Notes under the pieces: model-generated
The model's database searches: none
Told to the model about the DNA's origin: nothing
What the model saw: only the letters and a program-made list of their open reading frames with translations
Assembly: GCF_964194025.1 (NCBI RefSeq)
Contig: NC_134473.1
Coordinates: 10,726,001 to 10,790,000 of the forward strand
Direction: 5' to 3'
Length of the DNA: 64,000 bases
Origin: Convolutriloba macropyga
Lineage: Eukaryota
Made by a program: the position numbers and the translations under genes
Part shown: positions 2,035 through 23,058 of the stretch, piece after piece
How positions within the stretch are numbered: position 1 is the first letter of the stretch
How the letters are laid out: each line of letters begins with the position of its first letter

Positions 2035-2127
2035 TGACCAATCGGAGTGCTTGATTTATTATTCAAGTTGACAACCAATCAGAATTGAAAGATTTATAAA
2101 CAAAAACTCTAAACGCTCACGTTCAGT
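2035..2127 (+). promoter_or_regulatory. Putative Pol II promoter of the left Polinton gene block
   Basis: Two CCAATC boxes (~2038, ~2075), TATAAA 2095-2100, Inr-like TCAGT 2123-2127 about 30 nt downstream, ATG at 2140. Confidence 0.6.
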
Positions 2128-2139
2128 AAACAGTAAATA

Positions 2140-2562
2140 ATGAACACAATAGGAACAAAAGACATCAAGCTCATTCATGAGAAATTTTTATCACTGAGAG
2201 GTAACATAAATTGTACACACATATCTTATCGACAATTATATATCGTAGCTGCTTGTTCTTTGTTAGATCCAGAAGTTGACGGAGAAATAGCACCTAAATT
2301 TAGACCCTATGGTGGTTTTATCGGAATTGATAATTCAAGACTAGATCCTTTATTGAAACGGAGCAAAGTGCTACAACTTCATGCTGCATTGCATGACGCC
2401 GCTGGATTTATAAAAGATTGCCGAAACAAAGGCCCTGGATATGTTTACGCTTTCCGTTACTCACCAGTAGACAATTGTCTTTTTGGACACCTGACAGGAA
2501 TATTATTCATTCTATCAGTGAAAATTTTTCATTCACAATTGTTTCGTGAATTGGAATGCTAG
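2140..2562 (+). CDS. Phospholipase A2-like protein (viral PLA2-type)
   Basis: LHAALHDAAG helix with His-Asp dyad preceded by PYGGFIG; PLA2-like genes are common in Polintons/adintoviruses. Confidence 0.55.
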   Translation: MNTIGTKDIKLIHEKFLSLRGNINCTHISYRQLYIVAACSLLDPEVDGEIAPKFRPYGGFIGIDNSRLDPLLKRSKVLQLHAALHDAAGFIKDCRNKGPGYVYAFRYSPVDNCLFGHLTGILFILSVKIFHSQLFRELEC

Positions 2563-3152
2563 AAAATTTTGGCAGCAAAACTACAAATATAATTGTCCTC
2601 GATCTCGAAGGTTTCAAACTCAAGTCACTTGGTTTCATTATAAAAGAACTCAGTTTGTGTTCGAGTTACAACGATACAATATTTTTCAAACCACCGCTTA
2701 AATTCGCTGATTTACCCGCACACGATAGACAAACTGTTATTTGGCTGACCAATAACCTACACGGTCTTGATTGGGACGAAGGTGATATACCTTACTGTGA
2801 GTTGAAAACAATCTGTCTGAGTTTCAGTTTCCGATTCAAACGGAAAAATTTTTTTGCCAAAGGCATTAAAAAGTGTGAGCTCCTCAGTAAGCTTTTACAG
2901 AAAACTGTTTATAATCTGGAGGATCTAAATTGTCCCCGAATCTCAGAGATAATATCAGAAGAACAAGTTCCCTCCTGTTATCTTCATTCAAACTTTCGTT
3001 CAACAAACGATCAATTATCAAATCACTGCGCGGAACGTAAAGCAAGAATTTTTTCACAGTGGGCACAAAGTGATGCACAGAGAAGACACGGCAACTTTAA
3101 CAACTTATCTGTCAGACAACTTGAAGATATTCACTTGCTTGACTCCACTTGA
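2556..3152 (+). CDS. DEDD-like (DnaQ-fold) 3'-5' exonuclease-like Maverick protein
   Basis: IVLDLEGF...IKEL, HGLDWDEG, KG, C-terminal C..H...HCA pattern. Confidence 0.65.
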   Translation: MLENFGSKTTNIIVLDLEGFKLKSLGFIIKELSLCSSYNDTIFFKPPLKFADLPAHDRQTVIWLTNNLHGLDWDEGDIPYCELKTICLSFSFRFKRKNFFAKGIKKCELLSKLLQKTVYNLEDLNCPRISEIISEEQVPSCYLHSNFRSTNDQLSNHCAERKARIFSQWAQSDAQRRHGNFNNLSVRQLEDIHLLDST

Positions 3153-3462
3153 CGATCAGCCGATTGTAATATTCAACAGAGTACAGGATCCCTCTCCACC
3201 AATACAGAGTAATTTTTTAAGTGATCAACAGAACCGAGCGAACTATCTCAACAATAAGCCAAACACAGCACAACAATCGCGTTACAACGCGCTTTATAGC
3301 GCAGCAGCGAAACGTTATTTTGCAACCATTACTCTTTCTCCCGACGAGCTAGACAGCTTTAGGGCTTTCCTGCCCGTGATAGATAATTTCTATCACTTCC
3401 AACTGTACGTAAAAAATAAACAGAGCTCGAGAACGTCGGAATCAGTTCAATTATGGCTATGA
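3070..3462 (+). CDS. Hypothetical Polinton protein
   Basis: 130-aa ORF in a tightly packed co-directional gene block. Confidence 0.45.
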   Translation: MMHREDTATLTTYLSDNLKIFTCLTPLDDQPIVIFNRVQDPSPPIQSNFLSDQQNRANYLNNKPNTAQQSRYNALYSAAAKRYFATITLSPDELDSFRAFLPVIDNFYHFQLYVKNKQSSRTSESVQLWL

Positions 3463-3758
3463 ATAAAACAAACCAGAAGCCTATGCAGTCCCCCAAAGAG
3501 CAGCGAATCCCACGTTGGAAGCAATGGGCGGACAAAAAAGTTCCTCAATTTAGATTGAAAAAAACACCACCAGAACGTAAGCTATCACTTAATGAGATGC
3601 CGAATGAGATGCGGTTATATGTCTTGGAGCACCCCGGAGTTGAAAAAGTCTTCAATCAACCCTCGTTCGAGGAAAATGACTCAACCGTTTGTTATAAACT
3701 AGAGATAAAAAGTCGTATTAAAGGTTTCAATTTGTTTGAGTTCTGGTACATGAAATAG
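3453..3758 (+). CDS. Hypothetical Polinton protein
   Basis: 101-aa ORF overlapping the upstream stop; AATAAA at ~3769. Confidence 0.45.
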   Translation: MAMNKTNQKPMQSPKEQRIPRWKQWADKKVPQFRLKKTPPERKLSLNEMPNEMRLYVLEHPGVEKVFNQPSFEENDSTVCYKLEIKSRIKGFNLFEFWYMK

Positions 3759-3838
3759 TTGCCCAGTAAATAAATCAAAAATTTAACATTTTATATCATC
3801 CTTGTTTCAATTCACTTTTCAATTAATTATTTTTCTCA

Positions 3839-4108
3839 ATGAATCGAAGAGACGAGGCTGACGCTGGTATCAGTAATTTAGTCTTTGATGTGAACAACAA
3901 GGAGAGGCCCCCATGGCGTTGTTGTTCAAATTCAACAGTGCCAAGGTCCGAAGTAATATTTTTTGTTCAAGTGAGTATCATTGTCTTAATGATCATTCTT
4001 TGCTTCTCTATGCTCTTTCTATTATCAGAAAGCTGTGAAGAGAAACCAATTTGGATAGCTCTCTTATCGAGTTTAGTTGGTTACATTTTACCTAATCCCA
4101 AACTATGA
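3839..4108 (+). CDS. Small two-TM membrane protein
   Basis: WRCC...FFVQ hydrophobic helix...WIALLSSLVGYILPNP; ATGA overlap with the ATPase start. Confidence 0.7.
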   Translation: MNRRDEADAGISNLVFDVNNKERPPWRCCSNSTVPRSEVIFFVQVSIIVLMIILCFSMLFLLSESCEEKPIWIALLSSLVGYILPNPKL

Positions 4109-4793
4109 ACAAAGTTATTCTTACACATGACAGGGTATTCATGTCAATTGTAGGACCAAGTGGTTGTGGTAAAACAGAACTCTTGTTTCGAATGCTAAAC
4201 GGTTCGACCTTTTATCCACGTTTTGAAAAATTTTATTATTTTTACAAAGAGTTCAAACCACTTTTCAAAGATATATGCAACGAGTTATACCAGGGATTGA
4301 GTTTCTAAAATACTCAGGCTTTGATATAAAAAAAAGGCTATCGCATTGTCTGCTTATCTATGACGATTCATGTGAAGAAATCTTCAACGATAAAGAATTT
4401 GTAAAAATAGCTACCTCAGGACGTCATTGCAAATTACATGTTATATACGTCAAGCATAATTTGTTCCATCAAAGCAAATGGTCCAGAACCATTGATCTGA
4501 ATACAACACACATAATATTATTCAAGTCGCTTCGTGACATTCAACAAATTGAATATCTTGGAAAACAGTTGAATTATCTCCAACTGATTAAAGAAGCATA
4601 CAAACTAGCAACTGCGGAGCCCTTTGGACATTTGATGATTGATCTCGACCCAAAAACCAGTCAGGGTTTACGTTTTTCATCGCAACTAATTGGACCGGAT
4701 CCTTCTATTTTTTACATTTTGTCCCCTGAAGCAGTCATTACAATTACAAATGAAAAAGAAACATTTGCTTATGCTCAAGCAATGGGCAAATAA
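4105..4793 (+). pseudogene. A32/FtsK-like DNA packaging ATPase, frameshift near 4270
   Basis: Walker A GPSGCGKT; Walker B LLIYDD; SGRH and HNLF motifs in the second frame. Confidence 0.93.
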
Positions 4794-5040
4794 GAGGAAT
4801 GAGAACACAGCTCAAATAGAAATATTACATCAGGGCGATTTCATTTGGTTCTTGAGTGACTGTGTGATGAACGTACTCTCTGGAGTTGTACCAATCAATA
4901 AAAATGAATTAAAAAATTTCGAGAAACCACTACGTAAACTTGCAGACAGGCGAGTTGAAAAAAGAGAGAATCAAAATTTTTCGATCAGATTCTGAAATCC
5001 GTCTAATTAAACTGATTGCGTTACCTTGTATTGCTTTTCT
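4771..5040 (+). pseudogene. Small conserved Maverick protein (NVLxGxVP family), frameshifted
   Basis: LSDCVMNVLSGVVPI...LRKLA resembles a recurrent Maverick small ORF; end coordinate approximate. Confidence 0.55.
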
Positions 5041-5048
5041 GGAGCAAA

Positions 5049-5760
5049 ATGCACACTGAAGAGTTTGTGCTATTTCCTCGTCAAATGTATGCGAATGAAC
5101 AACCTCAAATTGCTCAACTTCTCAACAATAAAAATGTCCGAGAGAAAGCAAAACAAATATCAGTGTTGCAAAGAAGCAAGTCTCCACCAGCACCTTCTAC
5201 CACGCAACAAGACACGCAACAGCAGACAGATAATATTTTGGAGAATGTCAAAGATGAGCTGAATGAGACTAGAGATGACAAAATTGATACAAAAGTTTCA
5301 ACTGAAATCAGGGAGCGAGTTTTGAGAGATATTAAACACTTTGACAGAAAAAGTTTGAAAAAGCGAGCATAATATTGGAAAAATAGAAGAGTCAGAAACT
5401 CTATCGTTGGATCAAACATCAAGACTAATGGTTAATAAGTCAAGAACGGGAGTTCTTGTCGCAGATTTTCTTTACGATCTACAACAAACCACATCTAAGC
5501 TTTCACTCGAACATTACAAAGTGCTGACCTTTCTAGATATCAGTTCACAATTAACTTGTAATACATACGCAAAAAAATTTCTTGCCTTATCACTAAACGA
5601 AAAGTTACAGTTGTTTGAGGATGAACCAGAAAACGAAGAATCAGGAGTCTCGAGAACAGAAGAATCAAAAGCTTCTGGCGACGATGAAAGAAGCTTTGAA
5701 GATGCAAAAGACGAAATCCAACCGTCTAGCTCGTGGACAAATTACTTCCTCTCACGTTAA
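5049..5760 (+). pseudogene. Maverick ORF upstream of the integrase, disrupted
   Basis: Two consecutive ORF fragments (EEFVLFP...; DFLYDLQ) occupying the usual pre-integrase position. Confidence 0.5.
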
Positions 5761-6661
5761 ACAATTGAACAAATTATACACAAAAGGTAGTGCAGCTTTT
5801 GGTAGCATTGCTAACTTGAAGAAAGCCAGTGGTTTACCAAGATCCAAAGTGGTTCAATACCTTCAGTCGAAAGCCCCATACACAATATACAGACAATTCA
5901 GAAAAACTTTTCCGAGACTAAAAGCTGTTGCATACAGAATAAACGAAATCTGGTCTGTCGATTTGGCGTATATAGATAAAATTGCCCAACACAACAATGG
6001 AGTCACATATTTACTGGTGGCTGTTGATGTTTTATCGCGATACCTACGAGTGCAACCGATAAAGGCTTTATATGCAAAAGACGCTGTTGAAGCGTTCAAA
6101 AAAATGATCAAACAGAAAAACCAGAAAGGGTTTGGACAGACAAGGGATCCGAGTTTAAAGGTGAATTCAAAAAATTTTGTGAAAAGAAGGAGATTCATTT
6201 ATATACAACCGAAAACGAAACCAAGTCGGCATTTGCTGAGAGGAATATTCGATCGCTCAAAAACATTATTCTCAAATACCTGGAGGAAAATTGGACTTGG
6301 ACTTATATTAAGCAATTGCCCCAGTTTGTAAATACTATAAACAGTCGTGTTAATCGTGTTACCCAACTTGCGCCTAATAAAACTTTCAAAAAACATGAAC
6401 CGTTTCTAATATCCCTAGCAATTAGCACAAAAAAGTACAAGCCAAAATACGAAGAAGGAGACCTGGTTCGGATTGCAAAGCCAGACGAAACATTTAGGAA
6501 AGGTTATAAACAAAATTACAGACGAAGTCTTCACAGTATTCAAGGTTGCCACCCTTAGTCCACCAACATACAACCTTATAGACGCAAACAACGTTATAAT
6601 TGAAGGTAAATTTTATGAACCAGAATTAGTCCAAGTGAACGTCATTCCTGTCGAAGATTAA
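5615..6661 (+). pseudogene. Retroviral-like (rve) c-integrase, two frameshifts
   Basis: WSVDL, VDVLSR, TDKGSEF, AERNIRSLK (DDE triad), FRKGY..., GKFYEPEL; no chromodomain follows. Confidence 0.95.
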
Positions 6662-6663
6662 AC

Positions 6664-7500
6664 ATGAGTATTAATAAAGAATTTACTATTGATTTGATAT
6701 TGAATGCATCAATGGAAATTTTTACCAATAATACTATGGCCAAGTTTCGAAATCAGCTCGCCCAATCATTACAGTTAGATGGAGATTGGCAGGTTGCCCT
6801 TGCTTCAATATCATTTCCATCAAACATCAACATTATAAACTCAGCCGAAATAGTTGCATATGTCAGTTCTGGCGCTGAACTTGATGCTTCACATAACCGC
6901 ACTGGACAACTTCGAAGAATTCGCAAAGGTATATACAACAGTTCAGAAGAGCTTCTGGAAGAAATTTTTCGAATCGCTCAATTGAAAAACTTTGACTATG
7001 ATTTTGACACTGTAACGCAAAAGTTAGTTTTGAAATTTGGGCCTAACGAAGGTTTGTCATTTGAAGATGAAGAAGTCCCCAGTATTCTTGGTTTTAAGGG
7101 AATAAGAGATATTTCGAATCCTGGTTTTATTCACATTGGTTAAAAGTGAGAAAAAGCAGGCAACACTTTGAACAGACATGTTGGAGATTTTCCAGTTGAT
7201 ATCACTTGCGGATCACAGCTAATATTTGTATACATTGATATAATTGAACATCAAAACGTTGGTGATGTGAGAGCTCCGGTAATAAAAATCATTGAGTCTG
7301 AAAGACGTTTGAGAAACGGTAGCATAAACACAGTGACACCCATACACCATAAGTCTTACACAAATTTGGATTACAAGCCAATATTATCAAACAATATTCA
7401 GAACATCCAGGTAGAGTTGAGAAACGAAACTGGAAAACTAATTCCTTTTACTGGTACTGGAAAAGTTATAGTCAGTTTAAAATTTCAAAAGGTTTTTTGA
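6664..7500 (+). pseudogene. Minor capsid protein (penton-like), in-frame stops at 7141 and 7147
   Basis: NT...FRNQL...L.GDWQVALASISFP; IFVYIDIIE.Q.VGD..AP; both ORF halves are in the same frame. Confidence 0.9.
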
Positions 7501-7501
7501 A

Positions 7502-7957
7502 ATGGAGGCATACTACAGCAATCAAGCATCTCAATCAATGCCGCATTTTTCCGGACACTACAGACAAAGAGGCAGCGGTTTTGGAGCCCTTGCTGCAGGT
7601 ATTGGAAGAGTTGCTCTGCCATTAGCACGCAAATTTCTCTGGCCCGCAGCAAAAAAGATTGGTCGTGATTTATTGGTTCAGGGGGCACCGGAGTCAGTAG
7701 AAGTTGCAACCAAAAGAAAGTCAGCAAAACAAGCACTGAAAAGTACAGTAGCCAAAACAGCTCGCAAAGAAATAGGTGGATCTCTTCAATCACGTATTGC
7801 ATCAGGCCGTAAAATAATTAGACGAAAAAGACGACAATACACGAGACCTCGTTCAAACCAAAAACGAAAAATCTCAACCAGAAGAATCATTTCTCGAAAA
7901 CCCCGTGCGAAAAGGAGTCGTCTGGATTTTTTCTCGCGAGTGAAAAATGCGAACTAA
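7502..7957 (+). CDS. Arg/Lys-rich virion core-like protein
   Basis: YY.NQ...F.G..RQRGSGFG motif typical of Mavericks, amphipathic helix, highly basic C-terminus. Confidence 0.8.
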   Translation: MEAYYSNQASQSMPHFSGHYRQRGSGFGALAAGIGRVALPLARKFLWPAAKKIGRDLLVQGAPESVEVATKRKSAKQALKSTVAKTARKEIGGSLQSRIASGRKIIRRKRRQYTRPRSNQKRKISTRRIISRKPRAKRSRLDFFSRVKNAN

Positions 7958-9258
7958 TATTGTGATACCATCTGAAGCCACTCACAGTTCTTTAGACTTA
8001 TTTGAAAAACCACCTTTGCTGGTAACATTTGATCAATCATTCGAGCAAAAAACAGGACCGCTTTATTCGCCTTCAGGATCATCATTGGAATTTGAAGTTG
8101 TTCGTGATCGCAACAATTTTATTGACTTGCAAAAAATTTACCTGGAGATCAAGTGTCAAATACTTCAAACAGTTGGAACGGATTTGCGCTACACAGCTGG
8201 TGACGCTAATGCCAGTGATCTTCCATATTTTGCTAATAATATCCTGCATTCACTTTTCGCCGACTGTACTGTTTCTGCAAATGGTATCAAAATTTCAACA
8301 GCTAATGGACACTATGCACACAAAAGTTTCATAGAAACTGAATTCTCTCATGGGACAGACGCAAAGAAAACATGGCTGAAATGTCAGGGTTACGAGTATG
8401 AAGAAAACCCCGGCACTATTCCAGCAGCAATATCAGATATAAGAAAAAGAACAGTGCGACAATCCGCACGCATAACATTATATGGAAAGTTGGCGGTTGA
8501 TTTCTTTTCATGTGAGAAACATTTGGTTAGTGGAGTTACGTTACGCATTTCAATGAGAAGATCTCAAGATGACTTTGCCGTCATCAGCGAAGACGCAGCG
8601 AAACAATACAAGGTTAAAATAGAAGAGGCTTATTTGTTTATCAGGAAGATGACGGTGTCAGATAATGTTGTAGATGCAATTGAGAAGACATTATTGAAAA
8701 CTCCGGCAATTTACCGATACAATGAAGTAATTACCAAAACATTCTTGGCTACAACAGGCCAACAAAGCTGGAAACATGAGGATATTTTCACTAAAGAGCC
8801 AATCAGAAGAGTCATTGTTGCATTATGCGTTGGTACAGCATTCATCGGTACCAACACCGCTAATCCATTCCATTATCAAAAATTTGGTTTAAGAGAGATA
8901 ACCATTTATCGAAATGGTTTTGCAACGGCTGGAACTCCAATGTCAACAACTGACAACAAGAGGTTGTACTACAATTCAATGAGTGCATTAGCTTATGTAG
9001 AAAATGGCCATGGAATACCTCTGAGTGAGTTCGCAAACCATTATTTAATGGTATTTGATCTGACCAGCACTCAAGAGGCAACTCATGACTTTATTCATCC
9101 TGAGCTCACAAACTCATCATTGTCTGTCGAGCTCAAGTTCGATGCAGCGTTAGCTCATAATGTTGAAATATTTTTTCTTGGGGGAAAAAGCATCTACTAT
9201 CTACATTGACTCTGCAAGAAACTCATCTAAAAACGCTCTTCCCATGATCACATACTAA
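7947..9258 (+). CDS. Major capsid protein (double jelly roll); frameshift in the homopolymer near 9180, natural stop at 9256-9258
   Basis: SSLDLF, LEF, FIDL, NNILHSLF, NPFHY, FDLT motifs; the alternative frame continues STIYIDSARN to a TAATG overlap with the protease. Confidence 0.93.
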
Positions 9259-9707
9259 TGGACGAAGACCAAATTCATCTTCAAGTGAAAAAGTGTAAAC
9301 ACCTCAAATTCAGAGGGGTTTATGCCGCTGATAATTTTCCTCTGAACTTGCAAACCAACACATTTATTATTGTTAATGCATCACGATCCAACTCTATTGG
9401 AACCCACTGGGTAGTGCTAGCTAAACGATATGCATACCCAATAATATATTTTGCGGATCCATTGGCTCTACCCTTGACTACCTACAAGGATATTTTCAAC
9501 CGTTTACAACAGTGTAAAGACTTTGAGATAATGATGGATATCATGGAACATAGAAGAGACATTCAGTCTCCATTGCAATCATCAGACTCCCAGCTTTGTG
9601 GTTTATTTTGCATATATATTGTTCATTATTTTTATAGTGAGAAATTTCCATTCATACCTGATGTAAATGAATTAGAGTTGCTAGCTTTTGTAAAACATAT
9701 GAAGTAA
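9258..9707 (+). CDS. Adenain-like cysteine protease
   Basis: GVYAAD, GTHW (His), FADP (Asp), QS..SQLCGLFC (Gln/Cys). Confidence 0.93.
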   Translation: MDEDQIHLQVKKCKHLKFRGVYAADNFPLNLQTNTFIIVNASRSNSIGTHWVVLAKRYAYPIIYFADPLALPLTTYKDIFNRLQQCKDFEIMMDIMEHRRDIQSPLQSSDSQLCGLFCIYIVHYFYSEKFPFIPDVNELELLAFVKHMK

Positions 9708-9750
9708 AAGTTAATTTAATTTTGAAACAACAACAACATTTTTTTGAGTA

Positions 9751-10437
9751 TCAATTTTTACAAAATTGAAAGGTTATGAAAGAGTTTGAGGTTTCCCGCA
9801 CAAAACTCCAGCGGCCACTAAGCAGAATATCCATTATCTGATAAAGAACTGACGAGTGTTCACCTAGCATAAGCTGGCAAAATCGTTTCATAGTTACATC
9901 AGGGACTGTAGAAGAACGTTTGTTTGCCTTAAAAGTACTAATAGATTTCGCTGTTGCCTCACTCAAGGGTGCTGGAAGTTGTTTCTGGTTCTTGGTAACT
10001 GAAGAATAAGTTGATTTTGAAAGGTACTCAACAGCAACATGTAGTCGTGAATTTATTGCACCACGTTTAACAAAGTCTTTTTGCGTAGGCTGAATAAGTA
10101 ATTTGAAACAGTTAACGAGACACGGTATCATCGCAGGTACATAAAGAGAATCGAATGTATTATCATCTTGCGAACCAAATTCATACATAACATGATAATG
10201 ATTGGAGCCAAATGTGCAACCTTCAATAACTGTTGCAGATGAATGATAACCATATCCATAATTTTCAATTGTTGTATTTTCAAGTTTTGGTTCCGTCTCA
10301 CAAATATTGTACTTGAAACGTTTTTGAAATTTCTTGAAATATTCAGGACTGTTCTCATACATTGCCTCAACCATAACGAACGAAAAATAAAAAGCTAATG
10401 AACTAACTATGAAGGCATAAACAATGACAGGAAGCAA
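9751..10437 (-). CDS. Hypothetical Polinton protein (HYH and YLSK motifs)
   Basis: 228-aa intact ORF convergent with the protease; start uncertain. Confidence 0.55.
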   Translation of the reverse strand: MLPVIVYAFIVSSLAFYFSFVMVEAMYENSPEYFKKFQKRFKYNICETEPKLENTTIENYGYGYHSSATVIEGCTFGSNHYHVMYEFGSQDDNTFDSLYVPAMIPCLVNCFKLLIQPTQKDFVKRGAINSRLHVAVEYLSKSTYSSVTKNQKQLPAPLSEATAKSISTFKANKRSSTVPDVTMKRFCQLMLGEHSSVLYQIMDILLSGRWSFVRETSNSFITFQFCKN

Positions 10438-10452
10438 AAGGTATAAGAGGAA

Positions 10453-10900
10453 TTATTCCGATTCCTCATTGACTGTTACAGATATTTTTGGTATCTTCTT
10501 TTGGCGCTGAGTCGGTGTTTTGCCGGCCCGTTTTGCTGGACGTTTCGAGTCATCAGTTAAATCTGGTTTTAGAAGTGAGTCGATCAAGCCAACTGGTTGA
10601 TCAAGCATTTTTTCTAGTTTTTCAATGTTTTGACATAGCAACCGAAACTCTCGCGCCGAAAGTAATTTTTTGATTGAAATCCCAATCGACCTGTTCACTA
10701 TCACGTTTGAACAATTTCAAGGATAAATAGGTGCCAGTGGTATGATAAGTCTTAACAGCAGCCCTAACAAGCCGTTTTTCTTTGAGCGAGAGATCCAAAT
10801 AAAAGTCGCTGTACTCAGCATCCTTAGACAAAACATTACCCATAATGTTGCATATATTGAGACAAACTGTATCAAAGTAATCTGAAATGATAAATGACAT
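10453..10900 (-). pseudogene. PC4-like ssDNA-binding protein, one frameshift near 10665
   Basis: Joining frames gives RLVRAAVKTY..GTYLSLKLFK...QKIT[L]SAREFRLLCQNIEKL, a PC4-fold pattern. Confidence 0.55.
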
Positions 10901-11038
10901 TACATAAATACATTACTGTTTATTGGAATGTAAACAATTTCAAACCCCACGCCAACATGTCTAGACAAGATAACAGCTGAACAAACAAATCCCCCCTCCC
11001 TACGCGTGTAAACAAATTTATACTCCTCTACGTCAGCT

Positions 11039-11332
11039 ATGACGTTTATACGAAATATGAAATTCAAAGGATCGGAAAAAATAAACCCTGCTGAATCAAG
11101 ACCCATTCAATGTCACAATTGTCCAAGGCAATTTAAAAATTTTCATTCACTAATGCAACATCGCCGGGCCAAGCATTATAAAGGCCATAGCAGAAAACAG
11201 TTTTACAAGTCCCGACCTTTAAATCTAAAAACTGACAAATTTTCATTGGCAATGGATAAATTAGCTCGCCTCCTCGAGTCTATTTATATTTCTCGAGAGC
11301 AACCCAATTCAACTTTGGTCAATATGACATAA
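11039..11332 (+). CDS. Single C2H2 zinc-finger protein
   Basis: CHNCPRQFKNFHSLMQHRRAKH. Confidence 0.6.
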   Translation: MTFIRNMKFKGSEKINPAESRPIQCHNCPRQFKNFHSLMQHRRAKHYKGHSRKQFYKSRPLNLKTDKFSLAMDKLARLLESIYISREQPNSTLVNMT

Positions 11333-11730
11333 TTCTATTTATAGACATGACGGAATAATGATGAAATGATTAAGTCAAATAATCAAATCGGTCTGCAACA
11401 ATTTTTTCAATCTTTCCGCCATTGGTTCTTTCTTGTTGTTCAATATAAGTTTTGTGAAAACTCTTTAGTTCTTTGGCACCTTATTACAATACTGCAAGTC
11501 TTTTGTTACTTAATCTTCTTATTGAATTGGCTTTCATCCTGCTTTTCCTTTCAGTTCCATACGATATAAAAGCAAGTTTTCATTTCTCTTGTTACTAGAA
11601 TTGGTTCTAGACTCGGTGCTGTTAAGTCTTTATAAAATTTTCCTTACAAAGAAAACTGTTTGCTTTGTTACCGCTTTAATCCGTAAAATTAGAACAAAAA
11701 ACATCCAATTGTTTATCCATCACCTGCAAT

Positions 11731-12225
11731 ATGGCTGCTGAATATTTAGAAATTGCAAAGACAAGTGAGCGAGGCACCCGAACTCTTGTGCGAATGTGTC
11801 ACAATTTTAAAAATATTGTCCTTGCAAACGAAAGCTATGATGACAAGACAGAATTGTGGCACACAAAAAACAGCATCATTCCTGTGAATTACATTGAACC
11901 AATACTCGATTATACAAAACAAAACGATTTATTCCAACTCACAAAAACGCCAGAAAAATTGTCACGACAAGAGGAGTCTCCATATGCTCCCCGATATTAT
12001 GGCTGCATTACTCCGATTCAAACAAGAAAGCAAAACGTGAAAAAATTGTCCAAAACACGAAAACTGTTTGCAGACTACGATCATGACTGCATTGAAATTT
12101 GGGAAAATCAACTAGGACAGCTAGAAGAAGTTGAGCAGATATCAGATTTTTGGAGTTTCGATCAATCTCAATCGCCTAGTGACATAAAAACTACGGAAAA
12201 AAAGTCTCCCTTTACTTTCCAATAA
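11731..12225 (+). CDS. Hypothetical Polinton protein
   Basis: 164-aa ORF with good ATG context. Confidence 0.5.
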   Translation: MAAEYLEIAKTSERGTRTLVRMCHNFKNIVLANESYDDKTELWHTKNSIIPVNYIEPILDYTKQNDLFQLTKTPEKLSRQEESPYAPRYYGCITPIQTRKQNVKKLSKTRKLFADYDHDCIEIWENQLGQLEEVEQISDFWSFDQSQSPSDIKTTEKKSPFTFQ

Positions 12226-15200
12226 CTTTTCGGATGACGTTAGCATCGAGGAAACTCCTCCGTTAAATCAGTGTTACGCTCCAGTCAAGAAGGTGATCAA
12301 GTTATCTCGGCTCTAAACAAAACAAACTTTCGTCAAACTCATTGTACATATTGAACTTTTTATTTTTGGCTGATTACTGTGTTTCAACGTATGAACTTTG
12401 TGTTTACTTCTTTAAACTAGTTCTTAATTTAATTTTCACTAATGATTCATCTCAGCATCAAACATAGCATGAATGTTTGGAAGAAGGAATTAAGCGTTGC
12501 AGAAAAATTCAGACATTGAACAAACAAGTGGATGAAAGATTGTATTAAACAAATAAACAAAAGTAAAAAGGGTAGAATTAAAACCAGCTGAAGCTTGGGT
12601 ATTTTCATATCATGACAAAAAATCAGTAAACAATTTTCAGCAGATAATAGTACGCGATGCTAGTGATAAAACAAAACTGGGGTAAACAAATAACCCCGCC
12701 GACTGACCTACCTGCACTGAGCAAACAAAAAACAGGAAAGCAGGTAAACAGTTGAATCTCTGTTATTGGCACAACGGTCTGCGAGACTAGAGGCCCACTG
12801 TTTGCTCAGAAGTAGCTTTCAGTTGCAAATGTAAACAAAACGTTTGCCGAGCAGTAGCTTTCAGTTGCAAAAGTAAATAAACAATACGCGCACTCTGATT
12901 GGGTTAGAGAGTTGTGAAAATGTGTGACAACCCAATACTCAATTTTGTCATTTGCTTTTTGCCTTAACAAACACGCGACAACTATTTTCTTTAGCTTCTG
13001 ATTCAAATATCTAAAATGTTTTGAAAAGTCAGGCATTGTCCCAAAATTTTTAGCCTTTGGCTAGTTTTCTTTCCTTGTTCCACAAACGTTTAAGTTTGAA
13101 CTAACGAAAATGAATAGTGTCGATTGTAAAATCTGTCATCGAACGCTCTCGGATAAGCGCAGCCTAAGAAGACATATGAAAACTGTACACAAACAGTAAG
13201 CAGTAACAAATTCGTTCATTTGCGATGAATGCGGTTTCACAGATGAAAAAGTTGTCGAACTTGAAACCCACATGAGACAGCAACATGACTCAATCAGGCC
13301 CCGGTATTGCTTGTACTGCAACAAGTTTTTCGAAAACAATCTGAAGTATATGGAACATATGACCAAAACTCACGGACTTCCGGTGTGGGACGCAGAAATA
13401 GAAAACAACCAAAGTTCTGGTTTACTACCCTCAGAACAAGCATTCAGTGGAGTGCTGAAAACTTACGATATTCCGGTCGGTGCGAACGAGATTGATCTCC
13501 TGAGCTTCTTGCGTAGCAAGCGCACAGAAATAGACAACATCGTGGAATTCAACACTCAGAGTCACGCACAAAAAATTCAGTTTTGCGCCATGGTTCAACT
13601 CACTAAACCGTCGAGCAATAAAAACATAAATAGTCAACCAGATCGAATAAAAATTTACATAAACTCAAAAATGCAACGCGTAGATTTTGTCGGGTTGAAC
13701 AACAACTCATTCGCAGAAATGGTTGAGCAAATGTTGATCTCACTCAACAACTTTGCATCGCATGGGAGTGGATGGACCGTTGACAGCATTGAAAATGTTG
13801 AGATTCGTTTGATGAAGAAAACCGATTAGTGCTTCTTCCTATTTTGCCTTGCCCACTGAGCTAGCTAGATGTCAATACCTGCTGAATATCCGCAACCGAT
13901 CAGATGAAAATTGTTTCCTGTACTGTTTCACTGCTCAGTACCACAAAACATTTGGACCACCAATCGTACCCGAGAATGCGTCATGGAGGCAAAAAACAAA
14001 CCCCATCATGTACAGTCCCGACAACCCGGCAGCCAAACAACCAGTAGGCGAATTTCTAATGCCGATGTCTTTTCACCAATTCGAGAAGTTCGAGCAACTA
14101 AATCAGGTTCGTGTAAATGTTTTCAGACATTCAAACGGCAAACTGATACCGTTCCGTATATCAAAAAATCAGAAATCAGACTTCAACCTTGACTTACTTA
14201 TGCTAAGTGATGGATCGATGCATCACTATGTGCTAATTACCAACATCAAAGGATTAATACACAAATATAAAAAGATAAATCTCCGCAGGGACAACCAAAT
14301 CATCCGCAATCGAAGAACACAAACCCTGTAGCTATGCTTTGCTTTTTGTTGCACTCAATGAAGTCGAACCTTACTTCTTCGATATCAAAAGTGGGCCTAA
14401 TGTGATGTCCGAGTTCGTCAAGTTGCTTGAACAGATCGCAAAACAAATTTATGAAGTCAAGCAAAAACACCGAAACTTTGAAGGTGAGCCAACGATCCCC
14501 AAAGTCGAAGCAACTCATTGCTGGATCTGTTAGTCTGAATTAGATCAAAGCCCGCAAAACCCTACGGTGCTGGATCATTGCCACTTCACTGGAATGTTTC
14601 TTGGGTGGGCACATACTTTCTGCAATTTGAAGCGAAGAACAATAAATTTCACCCCCGTTTTCGCTCACAATTTAGCAAACTACGATCTTCATCATGTGGT
14701 GCTAGCACTACAAAGTTTGGATGAGAAGAACACAATTTCAATTGTTCCCAACACTAGTGAGAAATTTATTTCGTTGCAAATTGGTGTTTACATCAAGTCA
14801 ACTCAGAACAAAAAAGGCGTGTGGCACAACCAGTACGAATATATACGACTCCTGGACTCATTCAAATTAATGAATACATCGCTCGATAACTTAGTCCAAA
14901 ACTTGCCCTCAGACCAATTCACATTACCATTACTCGAACAATATTTCCAAACTTGGCCCGAATCATCCACTAAATTGTTAAAGCAGAAGGGATGCTTTCC
15001 TTACTGCTATATTGATAGCTTTGAAAAAGCTTTGGAAGAGAAACAGCTCCCCCCTCGGGAGAAATGGACAAACAGCTTGCAACAATTCGAAGTTACAGTT
15101 ACCGACGCTGAATATGCGCGGGCGATTGAGGTATTCAATTTGTTTCGATGCCAAAATATAGGAGAGTATTACAACCTGTATCTAAAAACAGATGGTTTTC

Positions 15201-16406
15201 TCCTAGCTGCTGTTGTGCTATGTTTCCGCAATGTATGTTACGAGACATACGGACTGGATTGTTGCCAGAATTACACCGCATCGAATTTGTCTGGTGACGC
15301 AATGCTTAGTTTGTCGACCAGATCTGAAACTCTTGACTGATCGCGAGCATCTGGACATAGTGGAGAGTCTCATACGAGGTGGAGTAAGCTGTGTTTACAG
15401 CAAACGTCTTTGTCGAGCAAATAATAAATTTCTTCCAGATTACAAACCAAAAGGAATTTCATCCTTCATAGTTATGATCGATGCTAATAATTTGGACGGT
15501 GGAATAATGGAAAAATTTCCACTTCCACTCGGGGACTTTGAATTGTTTGACAAAAGTGAGTGGACAGATAACGATGCCCAGGAAACACTGCAACGCATAT
15601 TAAAAACACCAGATGATGATGATACTGGCTTCATTGTAGAAGTAGGCTTCAGCTATCCTGATCATCTACATGATTTGCATTCAGATTTTCCTTTGGCACC
15701 AACCAAGGAAGCAATCGATGAAAGCTGGTTGAGCCAATACCAAAGCGATTTGTTAGATGAAATGCAAATAAAGAAGCCTCCAAAAGTCAAGAAACTAATT
15801 CAGACACTTTTCGACAAAAACAACTACACGCTGCATTACCAGACTCTGAAGCTCTATTTAGAATTGGTACTAGTCGTGACAAAACTGCAACGAATGCTAT
15901 CATTCAAACAAGACAAGTGGTTGGCTCCCTATGTACGACTCAACACAGACAAAAGAAAGCAGGCAAAAACCAAATTTGAGGAAGATTTTTTCAAATTAAT
16001 GGTCAATTCTTCTTTCGGAAAAACTTGCGAGGGAAAGCGAAACCGGATAAAAGTGAAACTGGCGCGCACTGAAGAAGAAACTCTTAAATGGACAGACAGA
16101 CCGGAGTATAAGTCATCGAAAATAATCAGCGAAGATCTAGTAACAGTGAGCCTTGAACAACTTGAAATTTTATGGGACAAGCCAACCATAGTAGGTGCAT
16201 GCATATTGGATCTGGCTAATAAATATATGTTTGAATTCCATTACAAAGTAATGAAGAGAAACTTCGACTGCAATTTGTTGTACTCGGACACAGACTCGTT
16301 TGTATATGAAGTTCGATCAAGAGATTTCTTCGCTGACTTACAGCGGAAAAAAGCCATAGCTGGCCACTTTGATTTTTCCAACTTCCCTCCCGAACATCCA
16401 CTGCAC

Positions 16407-17161
16407 GAAATTTTTTTTTGAATGTTTTGAATTTTATTTGAAAATTTTTTGAAATTTTTTTTCGAAAATTTTTTTTTGAAAATGTTTTTTTTGAAAAAAA
16501 TTATTGAATTTTTTGAAAAAAATTTTTTGAAATTTTTTTTTGAAATTTTCTTTGAATTTTTTTTTGAATGTTTTGAATTTTATTTGAAAATTTTTTGAAT
16601 TTTTTTTTCGAAAATTTTTTGAAAATGTTTTTGAAAAAAATTATTGAATTTTTTAAAAAAATTTTTTGAAAAATTTTTTTATTGAAATAACAATTTTTCA
16701 ATTTTTTTTGAAATTTTTTTTTTGAAAAAAATTTTTTTGAGACTTAAATTTAAAAACAATTTAAAATTTAAAAACAATTTGAAATTTTTTGAAAATTTTA
16801 TTTTTTTAATTTTGAAAAATTTTTTTATTGAAAAAACAATTTTTCAATTTTTGAAAATTTTTTTTGAAAAATTTTTTTAAATTTTTTGAATAATTTTAAA
16901 TTTTTTTTAAAAAATTTTTTTTTTGGAAATTTTTTTTTTAATTTTTTTTTTTTGAAAAATTTTTTTATTGAAAAAATTTTTCAATTTTTTTGAAATTTTT
17001 TTTGAAATTTTTTTGAAATTTTTTTTTTGAAAATTTTTTTGAAAAAACTTTTGAAATTTTTTGAAAAAAAATTTTGAAATTTTGAAAAAATTTGAACATT
17101 TTTTTGAAAAATTTAAAACAATTTGAAATTTTTTTTTTGAAAAAACAAATTTTCATTTCAG
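16407..17161 (+). repeat. Copy of the A/T intron satellite lacking its donor site
   Basis: Same TTTTTGAAAAA units and same acceptor; 112 nt of exon plus the donor are absent. Confidence 0.85.
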
Positions 17162-18795
17162 GCCCTGCTAAGCAATCAGCGAAAGGAGTAACAAAAGATG
17201 CACGGCGCAGCGTGACCCACGAACTTTACAAAAGAACTCTTCTTGGTGGTGAGGTAGTGCGCCTCCTCAACACCCGAATAGCTTCAAGCAACCACTGGCT
17301 CCACACAATTGTTGTGAATAAAAAGTCGTTGTCGGGTTATGATGATAAGCGATTCATCATGAATGACCAAGTATCAACTCTGCCCTATGGACATCAATCT
17401 TTGAGAGATGACATGTTCTTCCGCACAATAGTCAACGACCCTGATTGGGGCTCCTAGGATGAAGAAAGCGAAAAAGAACAGCAGCAAAAAACTCAGCAGA
17501 AAAAAAAGCACCAGCCGCAAGACAGCACAACTCAACAGCACAAGAACAAGCAGCAGAAACAACAACAGCAGCAAACAAGCATTCCACAACCCAGCAGCAT
17601 ACACAACACAAGTTTCAATTCTATTCCCGACCCAGGTTTTCATCAGCGAGAATGTAGCGAGGACGAATTGAATGAAAACCTTGTTGATTTTGACAAATTG
17701 TCAGATTTGTCAGACAGTGGATCTTCGACAGACCCGGCTTGCGATGGCTTTATATTGGACCTAATAATTTGTACGGTGGAATAATGGAAAAATTTCCACT
17801 TCCACTCGGGGACTTTGAATTGTTCGACAAAAGTGAGTTGACAGATAACGATGCCCAGGAAACACTGCAACGCATATTAAAAACACCAGATGATGATGAT
17901 ACTGGCTTCATTGTAGAAGTAGGCTTCAGCTATCCTGATCATCTACATGATTTGCATTCAGATTTTCCTTTGGCACCAACCAAGGAAGCAATCGATGAAA
18001 GCTGGTTGAGCCAATACCAAAGCGATTTGTTAGATGAAATGCAAATAAAGAAGCCTCCAAAAGTCAAGAAACTAATTCAGACACTTTTCGACAAAAACAA
18101 CTACACGCTGCATTACCAGACTCTGAAGCTCTATTTAGAATTGGTACTAGTCGTGACAAAACTGCAACGAATGCTATCATTCAAACAAGACAAGTGGTTG
18201 GCTCCCTATGTACGACTCAACACAGACAAAAGAAAGCAGGCAAAAACCAAATTTGAGGAAGATTTTTTCAAATTAATGGTCATTTCTTCTTTCGGAAAAA
18301 CTCGCGAGGGAAAGCGAAACCGGATAAAAGTGAAACTGGCGCGCGCTGAAGAAGAAACTCTTAAATGGACAGACAGACCGGAGTATAAGTCATCGAAAAT
18401 AATCAGCGAAGATCTAGTAACAGTGAGCCTCGAACAACTTGAAATTTTATGGGACAAGCCAACCATAGTAGGTGCATGCATATTGGATCTGGCTAATAAA
18501 TGTATGTTTGAATTCCATTACAAAGTAATGAAGAGAAACTTCGACTGCAATTTGTTGTACTCGGACACAGACTCGTTTGTATATGAAGTTCGATCAAGAG
18601 ATTTCTTCGCTGACTTACAGCGGAAAAAAGCCATAGCTGGCCACTTTGATTTTTCCAACTTCCCTCCCGAACATCCACTGCACAACAAGGACAATGCACG
18701 TGTTACTCTCAAATTCAAGGACGAGATGGGACGCAGGCTTACATCAGAGTTCTGTGGACTGAAACCCAAACTGTACTCAATCACGCTTGCTGAAG

Positions 18796-19478
18796 GTAGT
18801 TTTTTCAAAAAAATTTGAAATTTGAAATTTTTGAAATTTTTCTGAAAGTTTTTGAATTTTTCTGAAAAAATTTTTTTCTGAAATTTTTTTTAATTTTTTT
18901 GAAAAATTTTTTTAATGAAATAACAATTTTTCATTTTTTTTTGAAATTTTTTTTTGAAAAAAATTTTTTTGAAACTTTTTTCAAATTTTTTTTTTGAAAA
19001 AATTTTTGAAATTTTTGAAAATTTTTGAAATTTTGAAAAAATTTGAACATTTTGAACAATTTAAAAACAATTTGAAGTTTTTTTTTGAAAATTTTATTTT
19101 TTTAATTTTGAAAATTTTTTTTGAAAAAACAATTTTTCAATTTTTGAAAATTTTTTTTGAAAATTTCTTCAAATTTTTTTTTTGAAAAATTTTTTTTAAA
19201 TTTTTTGAATAATTTTAAATTTTTTTTTAAATTTTATTTTGAAATTTTTAATTTTTTTTTTTTGAAAAATTTTTTTATTGAAAAAACAATTTTTCAATTT
19301 TTCAATTTTGAAATTTTTTTTGAAAATTTTTTGAAACTTGAAATTTTTTTTTTTGAAAAAACTTTTGAAATTTTTTGAAAAAAAATTTTGAAATTTTGAA
19401 AAAATTTGAACATTTTTTTTTTGAAAAATTTAAAACAATTTGAAAATTTTTTTTTGAAAAAACAAATTTTCATTTCAG
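18796..19478 (+). other. Putative spliceosomal intron in pPolB composed of A/T low-complexity repeats
   Basis: GAAG|GTAGTT donor, TTTCATTTCAG|GC acceptor; splicing restores KLYSITLAEGPAKQSAKGV. Confidence 0.85.
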
Positions 19479-22083
19479 GCCCTGCTAAGCAATCAGCGAA
19501 AGGAGTAACAAAAGATGCACGGCGCAGCATGACCCACGAACTATACAAAAGAACTCTTCTTGGTGGTGAGGTAGTGCGCCTCCTCAACACCCGAATAGCT
19601 TCGAGCAACCACAGGCTCCACACAATTGTTGTGAATAAAAAGTCGTTGTCGGGTTATGATGATAAGCGATTCATCATGAATGACCAAGTATCAACTCTGC
19701 CCTATGGACATCAATCTTTGAGAGATGACATGTTCTTCCGCACAATAGTCAACGACCCTGATGGGGGCTCCGAGGATGAAGAAAGCGAAAAAGAACAGCA
19801 GCAAAAAACTCAGCAGAAAAAAAGCACCAGCCGCAAGACAGCACAACTCAACAGCACAAGAACAAGCAGCAGAAACAACAACAGCAGCAAACAAGCATTC
19901 CACAACCCAGCAGCATACACAACACAAGTTTCAATTCTATTCCCGACCCAGGTTTTCATCAGCGAGAATGTAGCGAGGACGAATTGAATGAAAACCTTGT
20001 TGATTTTGACAAATTGTCAGATTTGTCAGACAGTGGATCTTCGACAGACCCGGCTTGCGATGGCTTTATATTGGACCAAGCAGTCGAATCGGATAACGCT
20101 ACTGTTTCAAGTGACAATAAAGTCACTTTGGTAGCACCGGAAAAAGAGAAAAAAGAAAGCAGAAAAAGGAGCTGCAAAAAAACCACGCTCGCATTATAGA
20201 CTATTCATCAACTGATGAAGATTGAACTCAGTGATTGGCGTATGCATACTTAAAGACTAACTAAGTTTTTTACTGTTAAAAAGCCCGCGAACAGAAGTAT
20301 GAAATAAGTAAGCTCCAATTAAGATGAAATTTTTTGAGTTTTTGTTGAAGTGCGGAACGCTCGGTCCCTCCTCTTCTTGTATTCCACAAGTTGTTGTGCA
20401 AACCTATTGCTAGTAACAACTCTCTCAGTAAAAAGTTCCTCTCAGGAAACCAGTGGCAGTTATTTCAAGTCTCAATCAAAAATCCTCCACCCCGAAACAA
20501 AACTCCCCCATCGTGCGCTGCGAACTACTAGCTGGATTGGTAGCAGCTGCTCGATCTCCACTTCGGTATCTTGCAAGACCGATCTCAAAAGTTCACGACC
20601 GGAACTTCTACGGCGTGCTCAACCTCCCGAGTTCACAGTCTATCATTGGAGTATTGGATTTTTGAAATTGACTTAAAATTACCAACTAACCGATTAAGTG
20701 AGAGAAACTTTGGCCTTTGCTTGAACTCATTATCAAGTTTAAGAACCACTAGTTAAAGATTAATTGAATAGACAGGTTACATTTTTGTATAAACAAGACA
20801 AATCAAAAGGCAAATGTTTGTACAAATCATTTTAAAAAGTATAAATTGAAAAAACATTCGCGGGCATGAATGCCGAATCAGTGTTTTTTAAACCACGATT
20901 ACAGAAGCAATGAAAAAGTCTATTTCAACTCCACTTTTCTTTCGTATATGAATGTAGATAACAGCCACGTAATTTCAAAACAAACCAGTTACTAGAGAAA
21001 CCCGACAAGATCTGATGACCCAATACTGTTGATGAAGAATCATACTGAATGACAAATTTGGTGTTGCCAGAAAAAAAATGGCGAATTTTAGATAAAAAAC
21101 AATAAAAACAAGCCATTGAAAATCTCAGGAAACCTTTTCTGATTAATTCCTTCCCAAATTGAGATCCATCAAGTTGCTCTGTTTCTCAATTGTACCAGTC
21201 TTTGGTTTTTAATTTTTTTTTTCAATCAGATCCTATAGATAAATTCGCCAATTTTTGATTGATTTATGTTTTCTGTCGTCAGAGTCAGATTGCGTTGAGA
21301 AGAAAGTGAAGAAAAAGAAGTCAAATTTTTGTTAGAATAAAAACCAAAAGATAAAGCTACCGAATAGTAGAACAATTTGCTGGAGAATGAAACTCAAATA
21401 TTTCAACCAAATTTTAACCAGACGAAGTTTTATAGCAACATAGCCCATGTTTTTTTAAGCCAAAACTCAAAGAAATTTGTTTCCTTTGAACCCCGATAAT
21501 AATTGTTTAATATGTTGACAAGTCACAGTTTTATCTTGCCGCAATTAATTAGCAGCGGCCCATATTTCACATAAAAAAACCTAGAATTTTGACATTTTTG
21601 CAAAAAATGGGTCTGATAAACGAAAGTATGTTAAAGTAGCATCTATGTTATTTGCCATAGCTCCAAAGTAGCGTTGGTTGAGAGAGAAAGCAGTAAATGT
21701 ACACTGTCTGGTTACAAAAATAATAGTCAACTATTACTACGCTGGGTTGAGATGAAAGAGAATGCGGCAAAAACTGGGTCACTCTGTGAAACAAAATTAG
21801 TAAAGATCCATATGGCCGAATCGGCGTATAAGCCCCTAGGTGCCGATGCACAAGTTAATTTTCATCAATACCTAATAACTGGAATCTTTGCAATTCGAGT
21901 CGAGTTGTTAAAGATGGCATGTTAATATTCTTAGTGATAATATTCCTCCAGCTATTCATCTGTCTCGATCTCTAACTGGTCAAAAATAAATTTAAACGTA
22001 TAAAGAATAGGTTAAATTGGACAACAATCAGAAAGTTGAATCTCTGTCTATTGAGTCTTTGTCCTTCACTGGATTAGTTTTTG

Positions 22084-22647
22084 CTATACCAGTCTTTGTC
22101 TTTTCAGATTTTTTATCTTTTTTTCGGCTTCTTCGGCTGCTCTTCGTTTTTCCACAATTGGATAAGAAGGAGGCGCACGTTGGACTGCTGGTTCGAGTGA
22201 TCCTTCTACCCGAGGGTTCTGCAGCTCGACGCGTAACCGAGCAACTGTGTCCCATGCTCGATTTCTTTCTCGCTGCACATTTTCAAGGAGACGATCACTG
22301 TGGTCCCGCTCGCTTACTGTCCTTCGGTGTCGATAGGACAGAACTTCTATATCGCGCTGGGACTGGTATAGCATTCGCTCGACGTTTGCTCTTTCACAAA
22401 TAGCGTTATTTCGTTCACGAGTAACGGTGTTAAGCTGCCGGTTGAGTGCATCAACAATTACCATACAACTTCGAAAGTTGTTCATCGCACAGTCTCTATG
22501 CTCGTGGGCTACATCCCGTTGCTGCTCTGTCTTTTTGCGTTCTTTTATAAGCGACTGAATCATTTGTATAAGATTGAAAGTACAGGATATTAAACAAAAT
22601 AAAGGATGGAAAAAATTAATAACGCAAGAAGCTATTAGAATGAACAA
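22084..22647 (-). CDS. Hypothetical coiled-coil protein near the right TIR
   Basis: Repeated ERD/ERN heptad-like pattern; likely start at MIQSL. Confidence 0.5.
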   Translation of the reverse strand: MFILIASCVINFFHPLFCLISCTFNLIQMIQSLIKERKKTEQQRDVAHEHRDCAMNNFRSCMVIVDALNRQLNTVTRERNNAICERANVERMLYQSQRDIEVLSYRHRRTVSERDHSDRLLENVQRERNRAWDTVARLRVELQNPRVEGSLEPAVQRAPPSYPIVEKRRAAEEAEKKIKNLKRQRLV

Positions 22648-22933
22648 CTTATCTGTTTTACACTAGTCAACAAAATTTTATCGCCCCTCACCCACGCGAA
22701 ACTGTCTGAGATCTTCTAAGATGAACTCCCCCCGCCTAGATATCTCAAGTTTACACATCATACACAAAACATGTAATCGCAATGGTAGCAATAGCAGTGC
22801 TTAATTTATATCACTGTTGTAAACAAACAAACAGACCCCGCAGCAAACAGTTAGTCGTAACAAAAACTGGGTCAAGCTTGTAAGCAAATTGAACAAAGTT
22901 AAAATCAACCGAAAAGTTTTCCATTTTTGGTCC

Positions 22934-23058
22934 AAAAAGGGGGGGGGACAATTTCTGCAACCTATAAAATTTTTGGAAGTGTCCCACACCGTTGTAGATG
23001 TGCATTGCAAAAATTGTCCGTCCCCCCGTTGAGGTTCTAGTCACTTTCCTTTACTACT
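22934..23058 (-). repeat. Right terminal inverted repeat
   Basis: Reverse complement reads AGTAGTAAAGGAAAGTGACTAGAACCTCAACGGGGGGACGGACAA...; only one copy of the subrepeat. Confidence 0.92.

What the first reader, a model, noticed from the sequence alone, without database searches (positions are those of the whole stretch)
18796..19478. Spliceosomal intron made of A/T satellite inside the Polinton DNA polymerase
Seen: a 683-nt block of TTTTTGAAAAA-type quasi-palindromic units is bounded exactly by G|GTAGTT and TTTCAG|G. Phase-1 splicing yields KPKLYSITLAEGPAKQSAKGV, restoring the normal short spacing between the K.YS and KGV motifs. The other Polinton genes here show no introns. Inference: the replicase depends on host splicing, and the expandable low-complexity intron may act as a regulatory switch or fragile site. 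Intron-containing Maverick polymerases may not be unprecedented, but the satellite composition is striking.
Basis: partly seen in the sequence, partly recalled or inferred. Interest (0 to 1): 0.7.

Follow-up and report, generated by a model that had tools for sequence, protein, structure and literature searches.

The report
Old Polinton intron swollen by satellite
A virus-like jumping element in an animal genome has its DNA polymerase gene split at one fixed spot by what is very likely an old host-type intron, and in one young branch that spot has filled with an unstable A/T repeat that is likely a harmless passenger rather than a switch.

Summary
The block and its GT/AG ends are real, but the satellite is not the intron's origin. 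All 26 measured family copies carry an insert at this spot: 18 are ordinary 139-156 nt sequences, 8 are 649-3319 nt satellite-filled. Three further, divergent Polinton families in the same genome have unrelated 158-177 nt GT-AG inserts at the same phase-1 position; other families lack it. Exon 2 is under strong purifying selection only in the spliced frame. So this is very likely an ancient spliceosomal intron of one pPolB clade; no RNA evidence was obtainable. The satellite arose in one young subfamily, likely from a TTTTTGAAAAAA seed near the acceptor, replaced the intron's middle, and keeps changing after insertion. It is weakly linked to rearrangements (5 of 6 junctions); nothing supports a switch, and it is not PATC-like (13-nt period). 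The window's own copy is a frameshifted, partial tandem duplicate. Papers read describe core genes as intronless; this scan has already noted intron-split Polinton polymerases in other genomes.

The parts
1031..23058 (+). Polinton/Maverick element, 22.0 kb, AGTAGT...ACTACT ends, 6-bp target site duplication ACTGTC (1025-1030, 23059-23064)
1031..1226 (.). left terminal inverted repeat (pairs with about 22934-23058)
   Evidence: (I2, I6)
4227..4793 (+). piece of packaging ATPase gene (Pox_A32, E 0.002, below curated cut-off)
5597..6558 (+). integrase gene, frameshifted (rve, E 3e-4, below cut-off)
7944..9209 (+). 421-codon frame, capsid by size and position (inferred; no Pfam hit, not tested further)
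9231..9707 (+). adenovirus-type protease (Peptidase_C5, E 1.6e-6)
13110..16406 (+). pPolB exon 1, copy A: in four frame pieces, cut short at 16406 by a deletion that runs into the satellite and removes the donor
16407..17161 (+). copy A satellite plus conserved acceptor end (TTTCAG), no donor
17162..17761 (+). pPolB exon 2, copy A (partial, with an in-frame stop)
17762..18795 (+). pPolB exon 1 3' part, copy B (tandem duplicate; starts at about residue 866 of a 1238-aa relative)
18796..19478 (+). phase-1 GT-AG intron, 683 nt (the finding)
18796..18801 (+). donor GTAGTT; the next about 45 nt of ancestral intron, present in sister copies, are lost here
18802..19450 (+). T(n)GA(m) satellite, 36 units, mean T run 6, A run 4, no YAG
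19451..19478 (+). retained ancestral 3' end: seed TTTTTGAAAAAA, pyrimidine tract, CAG (26 of 28 identical to the short intron)
19479..20199 (+). pPolB exon 2, copy B: KG motif and folded C-terminal part, then acidic tail with a frameshift

Best explanation
The block sits at a position where a whole clade of Polinton polymerase genes is interrupted by what is very likely one ancient spliceosomal intron, and the A/T satellite is a later, likely neutral expansion inside it. Inferred mechanism: the host spliceosome removes the phase-1 intron so that the KxY motif is joined to the KG motif and the C-terminal domain; unspliced RNA stops within 1-45 codons. In the ancestor of one young subfamily a TTTTTGAAAAAA seed near the acceptor was likely amplified by slippage and short-homology template switching, replacing the middle 60 nt. 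The repeat would be tolerated because both splice ends were kept and its units hold almost no AG. It keeps mutating in the chromosome and probably attracts deletions and duplications. The window's copy is a dead, partial duplicate.
For: Shown: insert at the same base in 26 of 26 measured family copies, 12 GT and 14 GC starts, 24 of 26 ending CAG, lengths in all three classes mod 3 (7/10/9), stop within 1-45 codons in all 26. Exon 2 dN/dS 0.04-0.07 in the spliced frame vs 1.3-2.0 in the other two for 3 indel-free pairs of 6 tried. Three other families with unrelated inserts of 158-160, 165 and 167-177 nt, all GT...AG, all with the acceptor 14 nt before the Ser of SAKG; one has GTAAGT, a CTAAT branch-like site and a long pyrimidine tract, at 46% protein identity. 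23 of 27 database ORFs that break there have donor-compatible residues vs 13 of 39 contiguous ones (Fisher p 4e-5). All 24 intron-type rows fall in one 45-row clade (SH-aLRT 99, quick tree). A RefSeq gene model of a related family joins at this site. Site lies in a strand-turn-strand, with about 90 well-folded residues after it (pLDDT 82-97); model best matches phi29 polymerase. Satellite: only in copies 97-98% alike in exons; both ends of the 139-nt intron retained; 20 of 23 genome-wide matches of its commonest 22-mer lie in these introns, the other 3 are isolated; no YAG in 7 of 8 cores; tandem twins 99.2% alike in exon share 21% of satellite 25-mers.
Against: No spliced junction was seen; only contigs of mostly DNA-like runs were available. 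The RefSeq model is a prediction and also skips another 59-residue stretch. Donors of the window's family are weak (GTAGTT, GCTAGT, GCCAGT), and two copies of one subgroup start TT/TA. The clade also holds 18 contiguous rows, the tree needs 7 changes (3 forced by starred branches), and no AU test was run, so repeated gain at a G|G proto-splice site is not excluded. The satellite subfamily is star-shaped with near-neutral private changes (405 private vs 9 shared, pN/pS 0.65), so it is not shown that a satellite-bearing gene was ever expressed.
Confidence: 0.8

Rival explanations
1. The satellite is mainly a fragile site that likely speeds the decay of its subfamily by seeding deletions and tandem duplications (compatible with the best explanation; here it is the main effect).
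For: Among 10 satellite-bearing elements, 5 of 6 large junctions found in or at the gene have one end in the satellite: window copy A deletion, window copy B loss of the intron 5' part, C5 tandem duplication (GAAA microhomology), an 8.4-kb deletion at C9:64.7 Mb, a deletion at C1:76.35 Mb. Binomial p 0.008-0.06 if the satellite is 15-25% of the region.
Against: n is small and found by exon queries, not a census. Short-intron copies also break inside their intron (L060, L030/L033), and tandem repeats of polymerase pieces occur in copies without satellite (e.g. four exon-2 hits at C7:5.652-5.656 Mb; paired hits).
Confidence: 0.4
2. The intron is kept, and the repeat was favoured, as a regulatory switch: weak GC/GT donors or repeat length would tune retention and so the amount of full-length polymerase.
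For: The intron is old, sits just before an essential C-terminal part, and the most numerous subfamily sampled uses GC donors (14 of 26); the satellite RNA folds more stably than shuffles (-132 vs -98 +/- 6 kcal/mol).
Against: Many families in the same genome lack the intron and are abundant (149 of 150 listed matches contiguous); another family has a textbook strong donor; satellite length and sequence are not conserved; predicted pairing of the splice sites is no different from short introns; period 13 nt, not the 10 bp of PATCs.
Confidence: 0.12
3. The inserts are not spliced: the gene is expressed as two proteins or by recoding, or the inserts are dead-copy insertions.
For: No RNA junction seen; exon 2 has an in-frame Met at codon 17 in most family copies.
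Against: The codons before that Met (including the KG motif) are conserved and the Met is absent in other families; insert lengths take all three frames, which rules out one recoding event; four families keep GT/GC and AG ends around unrelated interiors; copies with about 1235-codon open exon-1 frames carry the insert.
Confidence: 0.06
4. The satellite is an assembly or base-calling artefact of homopolymer runs.
For: Long T and A runs; no public contig spans it.
Against: Ten separate elements carry it at the same place with shared higher-order motifs and different lengths, and it is nearly absent elsewhere in 1.18 Gb. Exact run lengths may still be wrong.
Confidence: 0.03

Closest known systems
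Polinton/Maverick elements with pPolB (PMC8097293, passages read; nematode Mavericks 10.1101/2022.07.12.499685, passages; 10.1101/2023.08.22.554363, passages)
   Same: (AGT)2//(ACT)2 ends, 6-bp target duplication, integrase, ATPase, protease, family B protein-primed polymerase.
   Different: Those papers describe core genes as intronless (introns only in cargo genes); here the polymerase of a whole clade is split by one intron.
Introners in maverick-polinton-like elements of dinoflagellates (10.1101/2025.03.18.643946, passages read)
   Same: Spliceosomal-type introns inside Polinton-like elements.
   Different: There they are young repeated insertions at many sites; here one old position with unrelated interiors, and the repeat is not dispersed in the genome.
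PATCs of C. elegans (PMC4947018 and 10.64898/2026.08.08.743475, abstracts only)
   Same: Intronic A/T-cluster DNA; in the second paper derived from transposon minisatellites.
   Different: Period here is about 13 nt, not 10 bp; confined to one transposon subfamily.
phi29 DNA polymerase (PDB 2pyj, 1xhx, 2ex3)
   Same: Best structural match of a contiguous relative (E 1.5e-16, TM 0.73 on target).
   Different: 10-11% identity; that exon 2 equals the end of the palm plus thumb is recalled, not read from a call.

Membership tests
Polinton/Maverick | terminal inverted repeats with (AGT)2//(ACT)2 ends and 6-bp target duplication | tested here: met
   definition
Polinton/Maverick | protein-primed family B polymerase | tested here: met
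   DNA_pol_B_2 E 4.7e-6; relative folds like phi29 polymerase
Polinton/Maverick | integrase, packaging ATPase, adenovirus-type protease | tested here: met
   (protease above cut-off; integrase and ATPase weak hits on broken frames)
Polinton/Maverick | major and minor capsid proteins | not tested
   candidate frames had no Pfam hit; not folded
Polinton/Maverick | intronless core genes (as described in the papers read) | tested here: not met
   a described habit, not a diagnostic feature
U2 spliceosomal intron | GT or GC donor and YAG acceptor with pyrimidine tract, conserved while the interior drifts | tested here: met
   (interiors 61-70% alike vs exons 77-85%)
U2 spliceosomal intron | removal restores a frame under selection | tested here: met
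U2 spliceosomal intron | branch point | tested here: inconclusive
   CTAAT seen by eye in one family; none evident in the window's intron
U2 spliceosomal intron | removed from RNA | tested here: inconclusive
   no RNA run on record; contigs show no such joint
PATC | 10-bp periodic An/Tn clusters | tested here: not met
   autocorrelation and spectrum peak at 13 nt
Introner | near-identical intron copies at many unrelated genomic sites | tested here: not met
   20 of 23 matches of the commonest 22-mer are in this one intron position; short-intron sequences were not searched genome-wide

The most novel reading that the evidence does not exclude
One clade of animal Polintons has kept a single ancient intron just before the polymerase's last domain as a host-controlled checkpoint: splicing efficiency (GC versus GT donors, repeat length) sets whether an integrated copy can make full-length replicase, and the satellite-filled version both dampens and breaks up its own subfamily.
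Probability: 0.12. Interest if true: 0.72.

Novelty: new variant of a known kind. Interest (0 to 1): 0.42.

Why it matters
Polinton surveys rely on long open frames and call core genes intronless; an intron shared by several families at 46-65% protein identity means such pipelines clip the polymerase's last domain and may score live families as broken. The genome holds intron-plus, intron-minus, GC-donor, GT-donor and satellite-filled versions side by side, a ready natural series for studying intron gain, loss and donor turnover in a DNA virus-like element and the birth of a satellite from a known seed. The satellite itself is most likely a passenger.

Tried and rejected
RNA evidence: no RNA holder listed; 4 runs laid on the window and 4 on a short-intron copy, 5 distinct runs of 7, all contigs; no clean joint across the intron; contigs crossing it keep the insert; this blank is not evidence on expression. 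PATC-like periodicity rejected. Genome-wide satellite rejected; a first 36-nt pattern had 0 matches and was uninformative. Selection inside the satellite subfamily could not be tested: only 9 shared changes. 3 of 6 dN/dS pairs (with L016, L014) were spoiled by indels and are not counted. Testing whether contiguous protein P0006 is a spliced product failed: no copy above 63% in G000. Sequence search of PDB gave 0 hits. The careful tree did not finish; the quick tree is used; 21 of 87 hits did not reach the junction and P0076 was dropped for short coverage. Literature: 10 searches; none listed a paper describing a conserved spliceosomal intron in a Polinton polymerase; passages in PMC11296320, PMC8502044, PMC12220804, PMC6451197 and 10.1101/2025.02.07.637071 had nothing on it. 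Kapitonov and Jurka 2006 was not held, Pritham 2007 and Repbase entries were not seen, and supplements were not read; any of these could mention such introns.

Full report
1. Observation. The 683-nt block runs from GTAGTT at 18796 to TTTCAG at 19478, 89% A+T. Exon 1 ends one base after KLYSITLAE and exon 2 reads PAKQSAKGV after two bases, so the interruption is phase 1. Of 38 database homologs matching both sides in one chain, 33 have the sides 0-2 residues apart, as splicing would give.

2. Context. The block lies in a 22.0-kb Polinton (1031-23058) with AGTAGT ends, inverted repeats and the target duplication ACTGTC, and ATPase, integrase, protease and DNA_pol_B_2 hits. The host is likely an acoel flatworm: the nearest named homologs are Convolutriloba macropyga RefSeq models. 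This copy is broken. The polymerase exon 1 is in four frame pieces, and its 3' part is tandemly duplicated: copy A (15485-17761) lost 112 nt of exon and the donor by a deletion into the satellite; copy B (17762-20077), which holds the finding, starts at about residue 866 of a 1238-residue relative.

3. The intron is older than the satellite. A search of G000 with the exon end gave 40 matches, 30 fetched. Of these 25 had both flanks in the locus, one more was resolved with a longer stretch, two were tandem twins, one was window copy A and one was rearranged. All 26 have an insert at the same base: 18 are 139-156 nt and ordinary (62-69% A+T), 8 are 649-3319 nt satellite. Starts are GC in 14 and GT in 12; 24 end in CAG; lengths fall in all classes mod 3; the exon-1 frame stops within 1-45 codons in every one. 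Between subfamilies, exon 2 has dN/dS 0.04-0.07 in the spliced frame and 1.3-2.0 in the others (3 indel-free pairs of 6 tried), and intron interiors are 61-70% alike against 77-85% for exons. Thirty further loci taken from an exon-2 search, partly overlapping, gave the same picture, with two copies starting TT or TA and one with an in-frame microhomology deletion.

4. It is shared by distant families. Among 87 homologs, 27 leave homology just after KxYS; 23 of them have residues compatible with a phase-1 donor, against 13 of 39 contiguous ones. Looking such families up in G000 showed real inserts: 158-160 nt, A|GTAAGT with CTAAT, a long pyrimidine tract and YAG (21 of 25 loci readable, 20 with GTAAGT; 46% protein identity to the window; many with about 1235-codon open exon-1 frames); 165 nt, G|GTAAAT...CAG (4 loci); 167-177 nt, G|GTTAGT...TAG (9 loci). 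Interiors are unrelated, but in all four families the acceptor is 14 nt before the Ser of SAKG. Other families in G000 are contiguous (149 of 150 listed matches). On a quick tree of 66 rows all 24 intron-type rows lie in one 45-row clade (SH-aLRT 99) with 18 contiguous and 3 ambiguous rows; none of the 21 outside rows is intron-type. One gain with several losses is the simplest reading; 7 changes are needed, no AU test was run, rows are biased to this host (several match G000 at 98-100%), and some contiguous rows on short contigs could be transcripts. A RefSeq model of a related family (XP_075239384.1) joins at this site where ORF callers stop; it is a prediction only. In a model of a contiguous relative (pLDDT 82; best match phi29 polymerase) the site falls in a turn between two strands and about 90 well-folded residues follow; that these are the end of the palm and the thumb is recalled.

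5. The satellite. It occurs only in a subfamily of 10 elements found, 97-98% alike in exons and star-shaped (405 private vs 9 shared changes; pN/pS 0.65 private, 0.10 against the nearest short-intron subfamily). Long introns keep the first about 48 and last 28 nt of the 139-nt intron; the middle is replaced. The kept 3' end begins with TTTTTGAAAAAA, the unit of the repeat, and longer copies of that end recur inside the array in 7 of 12 arrays; origin from this seed is inferred. Units are T(n)GA(m), mean T 6-8 and A about 4, strand-biased, period about 13 nt. Cores have almost no AG and no YAG in 7 of 8, so no rival acceptor; this follows from the unit and need not be selection. Of 23 genome-wide matches of the commonest 22-mer, 20 are in these introns and 3 are isolated. 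Window twins 99.2% alike in exon share 21% of 25-mers; separate loci share 0-16%, so the array changes quickly after insertion.

6. Fragile site or switch. Five of 6 large junctions in the 10 elements have an end in the satellite (p 0.008-0.06), but copies without it also rearrange, two of them inside the short intron. This is suggestive. For a switch I found nothing: length is unconstrained, intronless families thrive, predicted access to the splice sites is like that of short introns, and the period is not the 10 bp of PATCs.

7. RNA. No run is on record as RNA; five runs laid as contigs gave no clean joint. Splicing is therefore inferred.

8. Known and new. Passages read describe vertebrate and nematode Maverick core genes as intronless; introners are reported in dinoflagellate Polinton-like elements. 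Ten searches listed no paper on a conserved pPolB intron; the 2006 and 2007 founding papers and Repbase were not seen. This scan has 29 earlier notes in at least 6 genomes on intron-split Polinton polymerases (unchecked), none on this DNA or on a satellite. Verdict: a new variant of a known kind; the conserved single intron with presence-absence and donor turnover is the substance, the satellite a local by-product. Interest 0.42.

Noticed in passing
L050 and L064 (G000:C8:44.37 Mb, C15:12.86 Mb): Two copies of one subgroup start the insert with TT or TA instead of GT/GC, with a GT one base upstream; broken donors or a slid site.
   Followed up: no
L060/L066 (G000:C4:41412423-41412824): Deletion between CTCAAG-like microhomologies removes the exon end and most of the short intron and leaves an open frame: an imprecise intron loss.
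   Followed up: partly
P0029, P0031, P0089: Database proteins that read through a 21-22 residue insert at the same site (an in-frame intron of about 65 nt).
   Followed up: partly
P0008 cluster: Intron-type polymerase found on several 13-18 kb contigs, about the length of one element, in ENA assemblies; possibly free or high-copy elements.
   Followed up: no
P0005 cluster: After KxYS these proteins continue with degenerate repeats of the preceding KDEM...YS segment instead of exon 2.
   Followed up: no
G000 genome-wide: Very many Polinton families; tandem duplications of polymerase pieces are frequent, e.g. four exon-2 hits at C7:5.652-5.656 Mb.
   Followed up: partly
L030/L033 (G000:C13:23.507 Mb): Short intron broken 8 nt after the donor and joined to inverted sequence resembling the element's left part (window about 2160-2190).
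   Followed up: partly
window 9751-10452 (-) and 22084-22662 (-): Opposite-strand frames of 233 and 192 codons inside the element with no Pfam hit.
   Followed up: no
window 36362-38563 (-) and 45946-48392 (+): A copia-type LTR retrotransposon and a LINE-type element, both in pieces.
   Followed up: no
window 25995-27316: Nested inverted repeats forming a decayed palindrome of about 1.3 kb.
   Followed up: no
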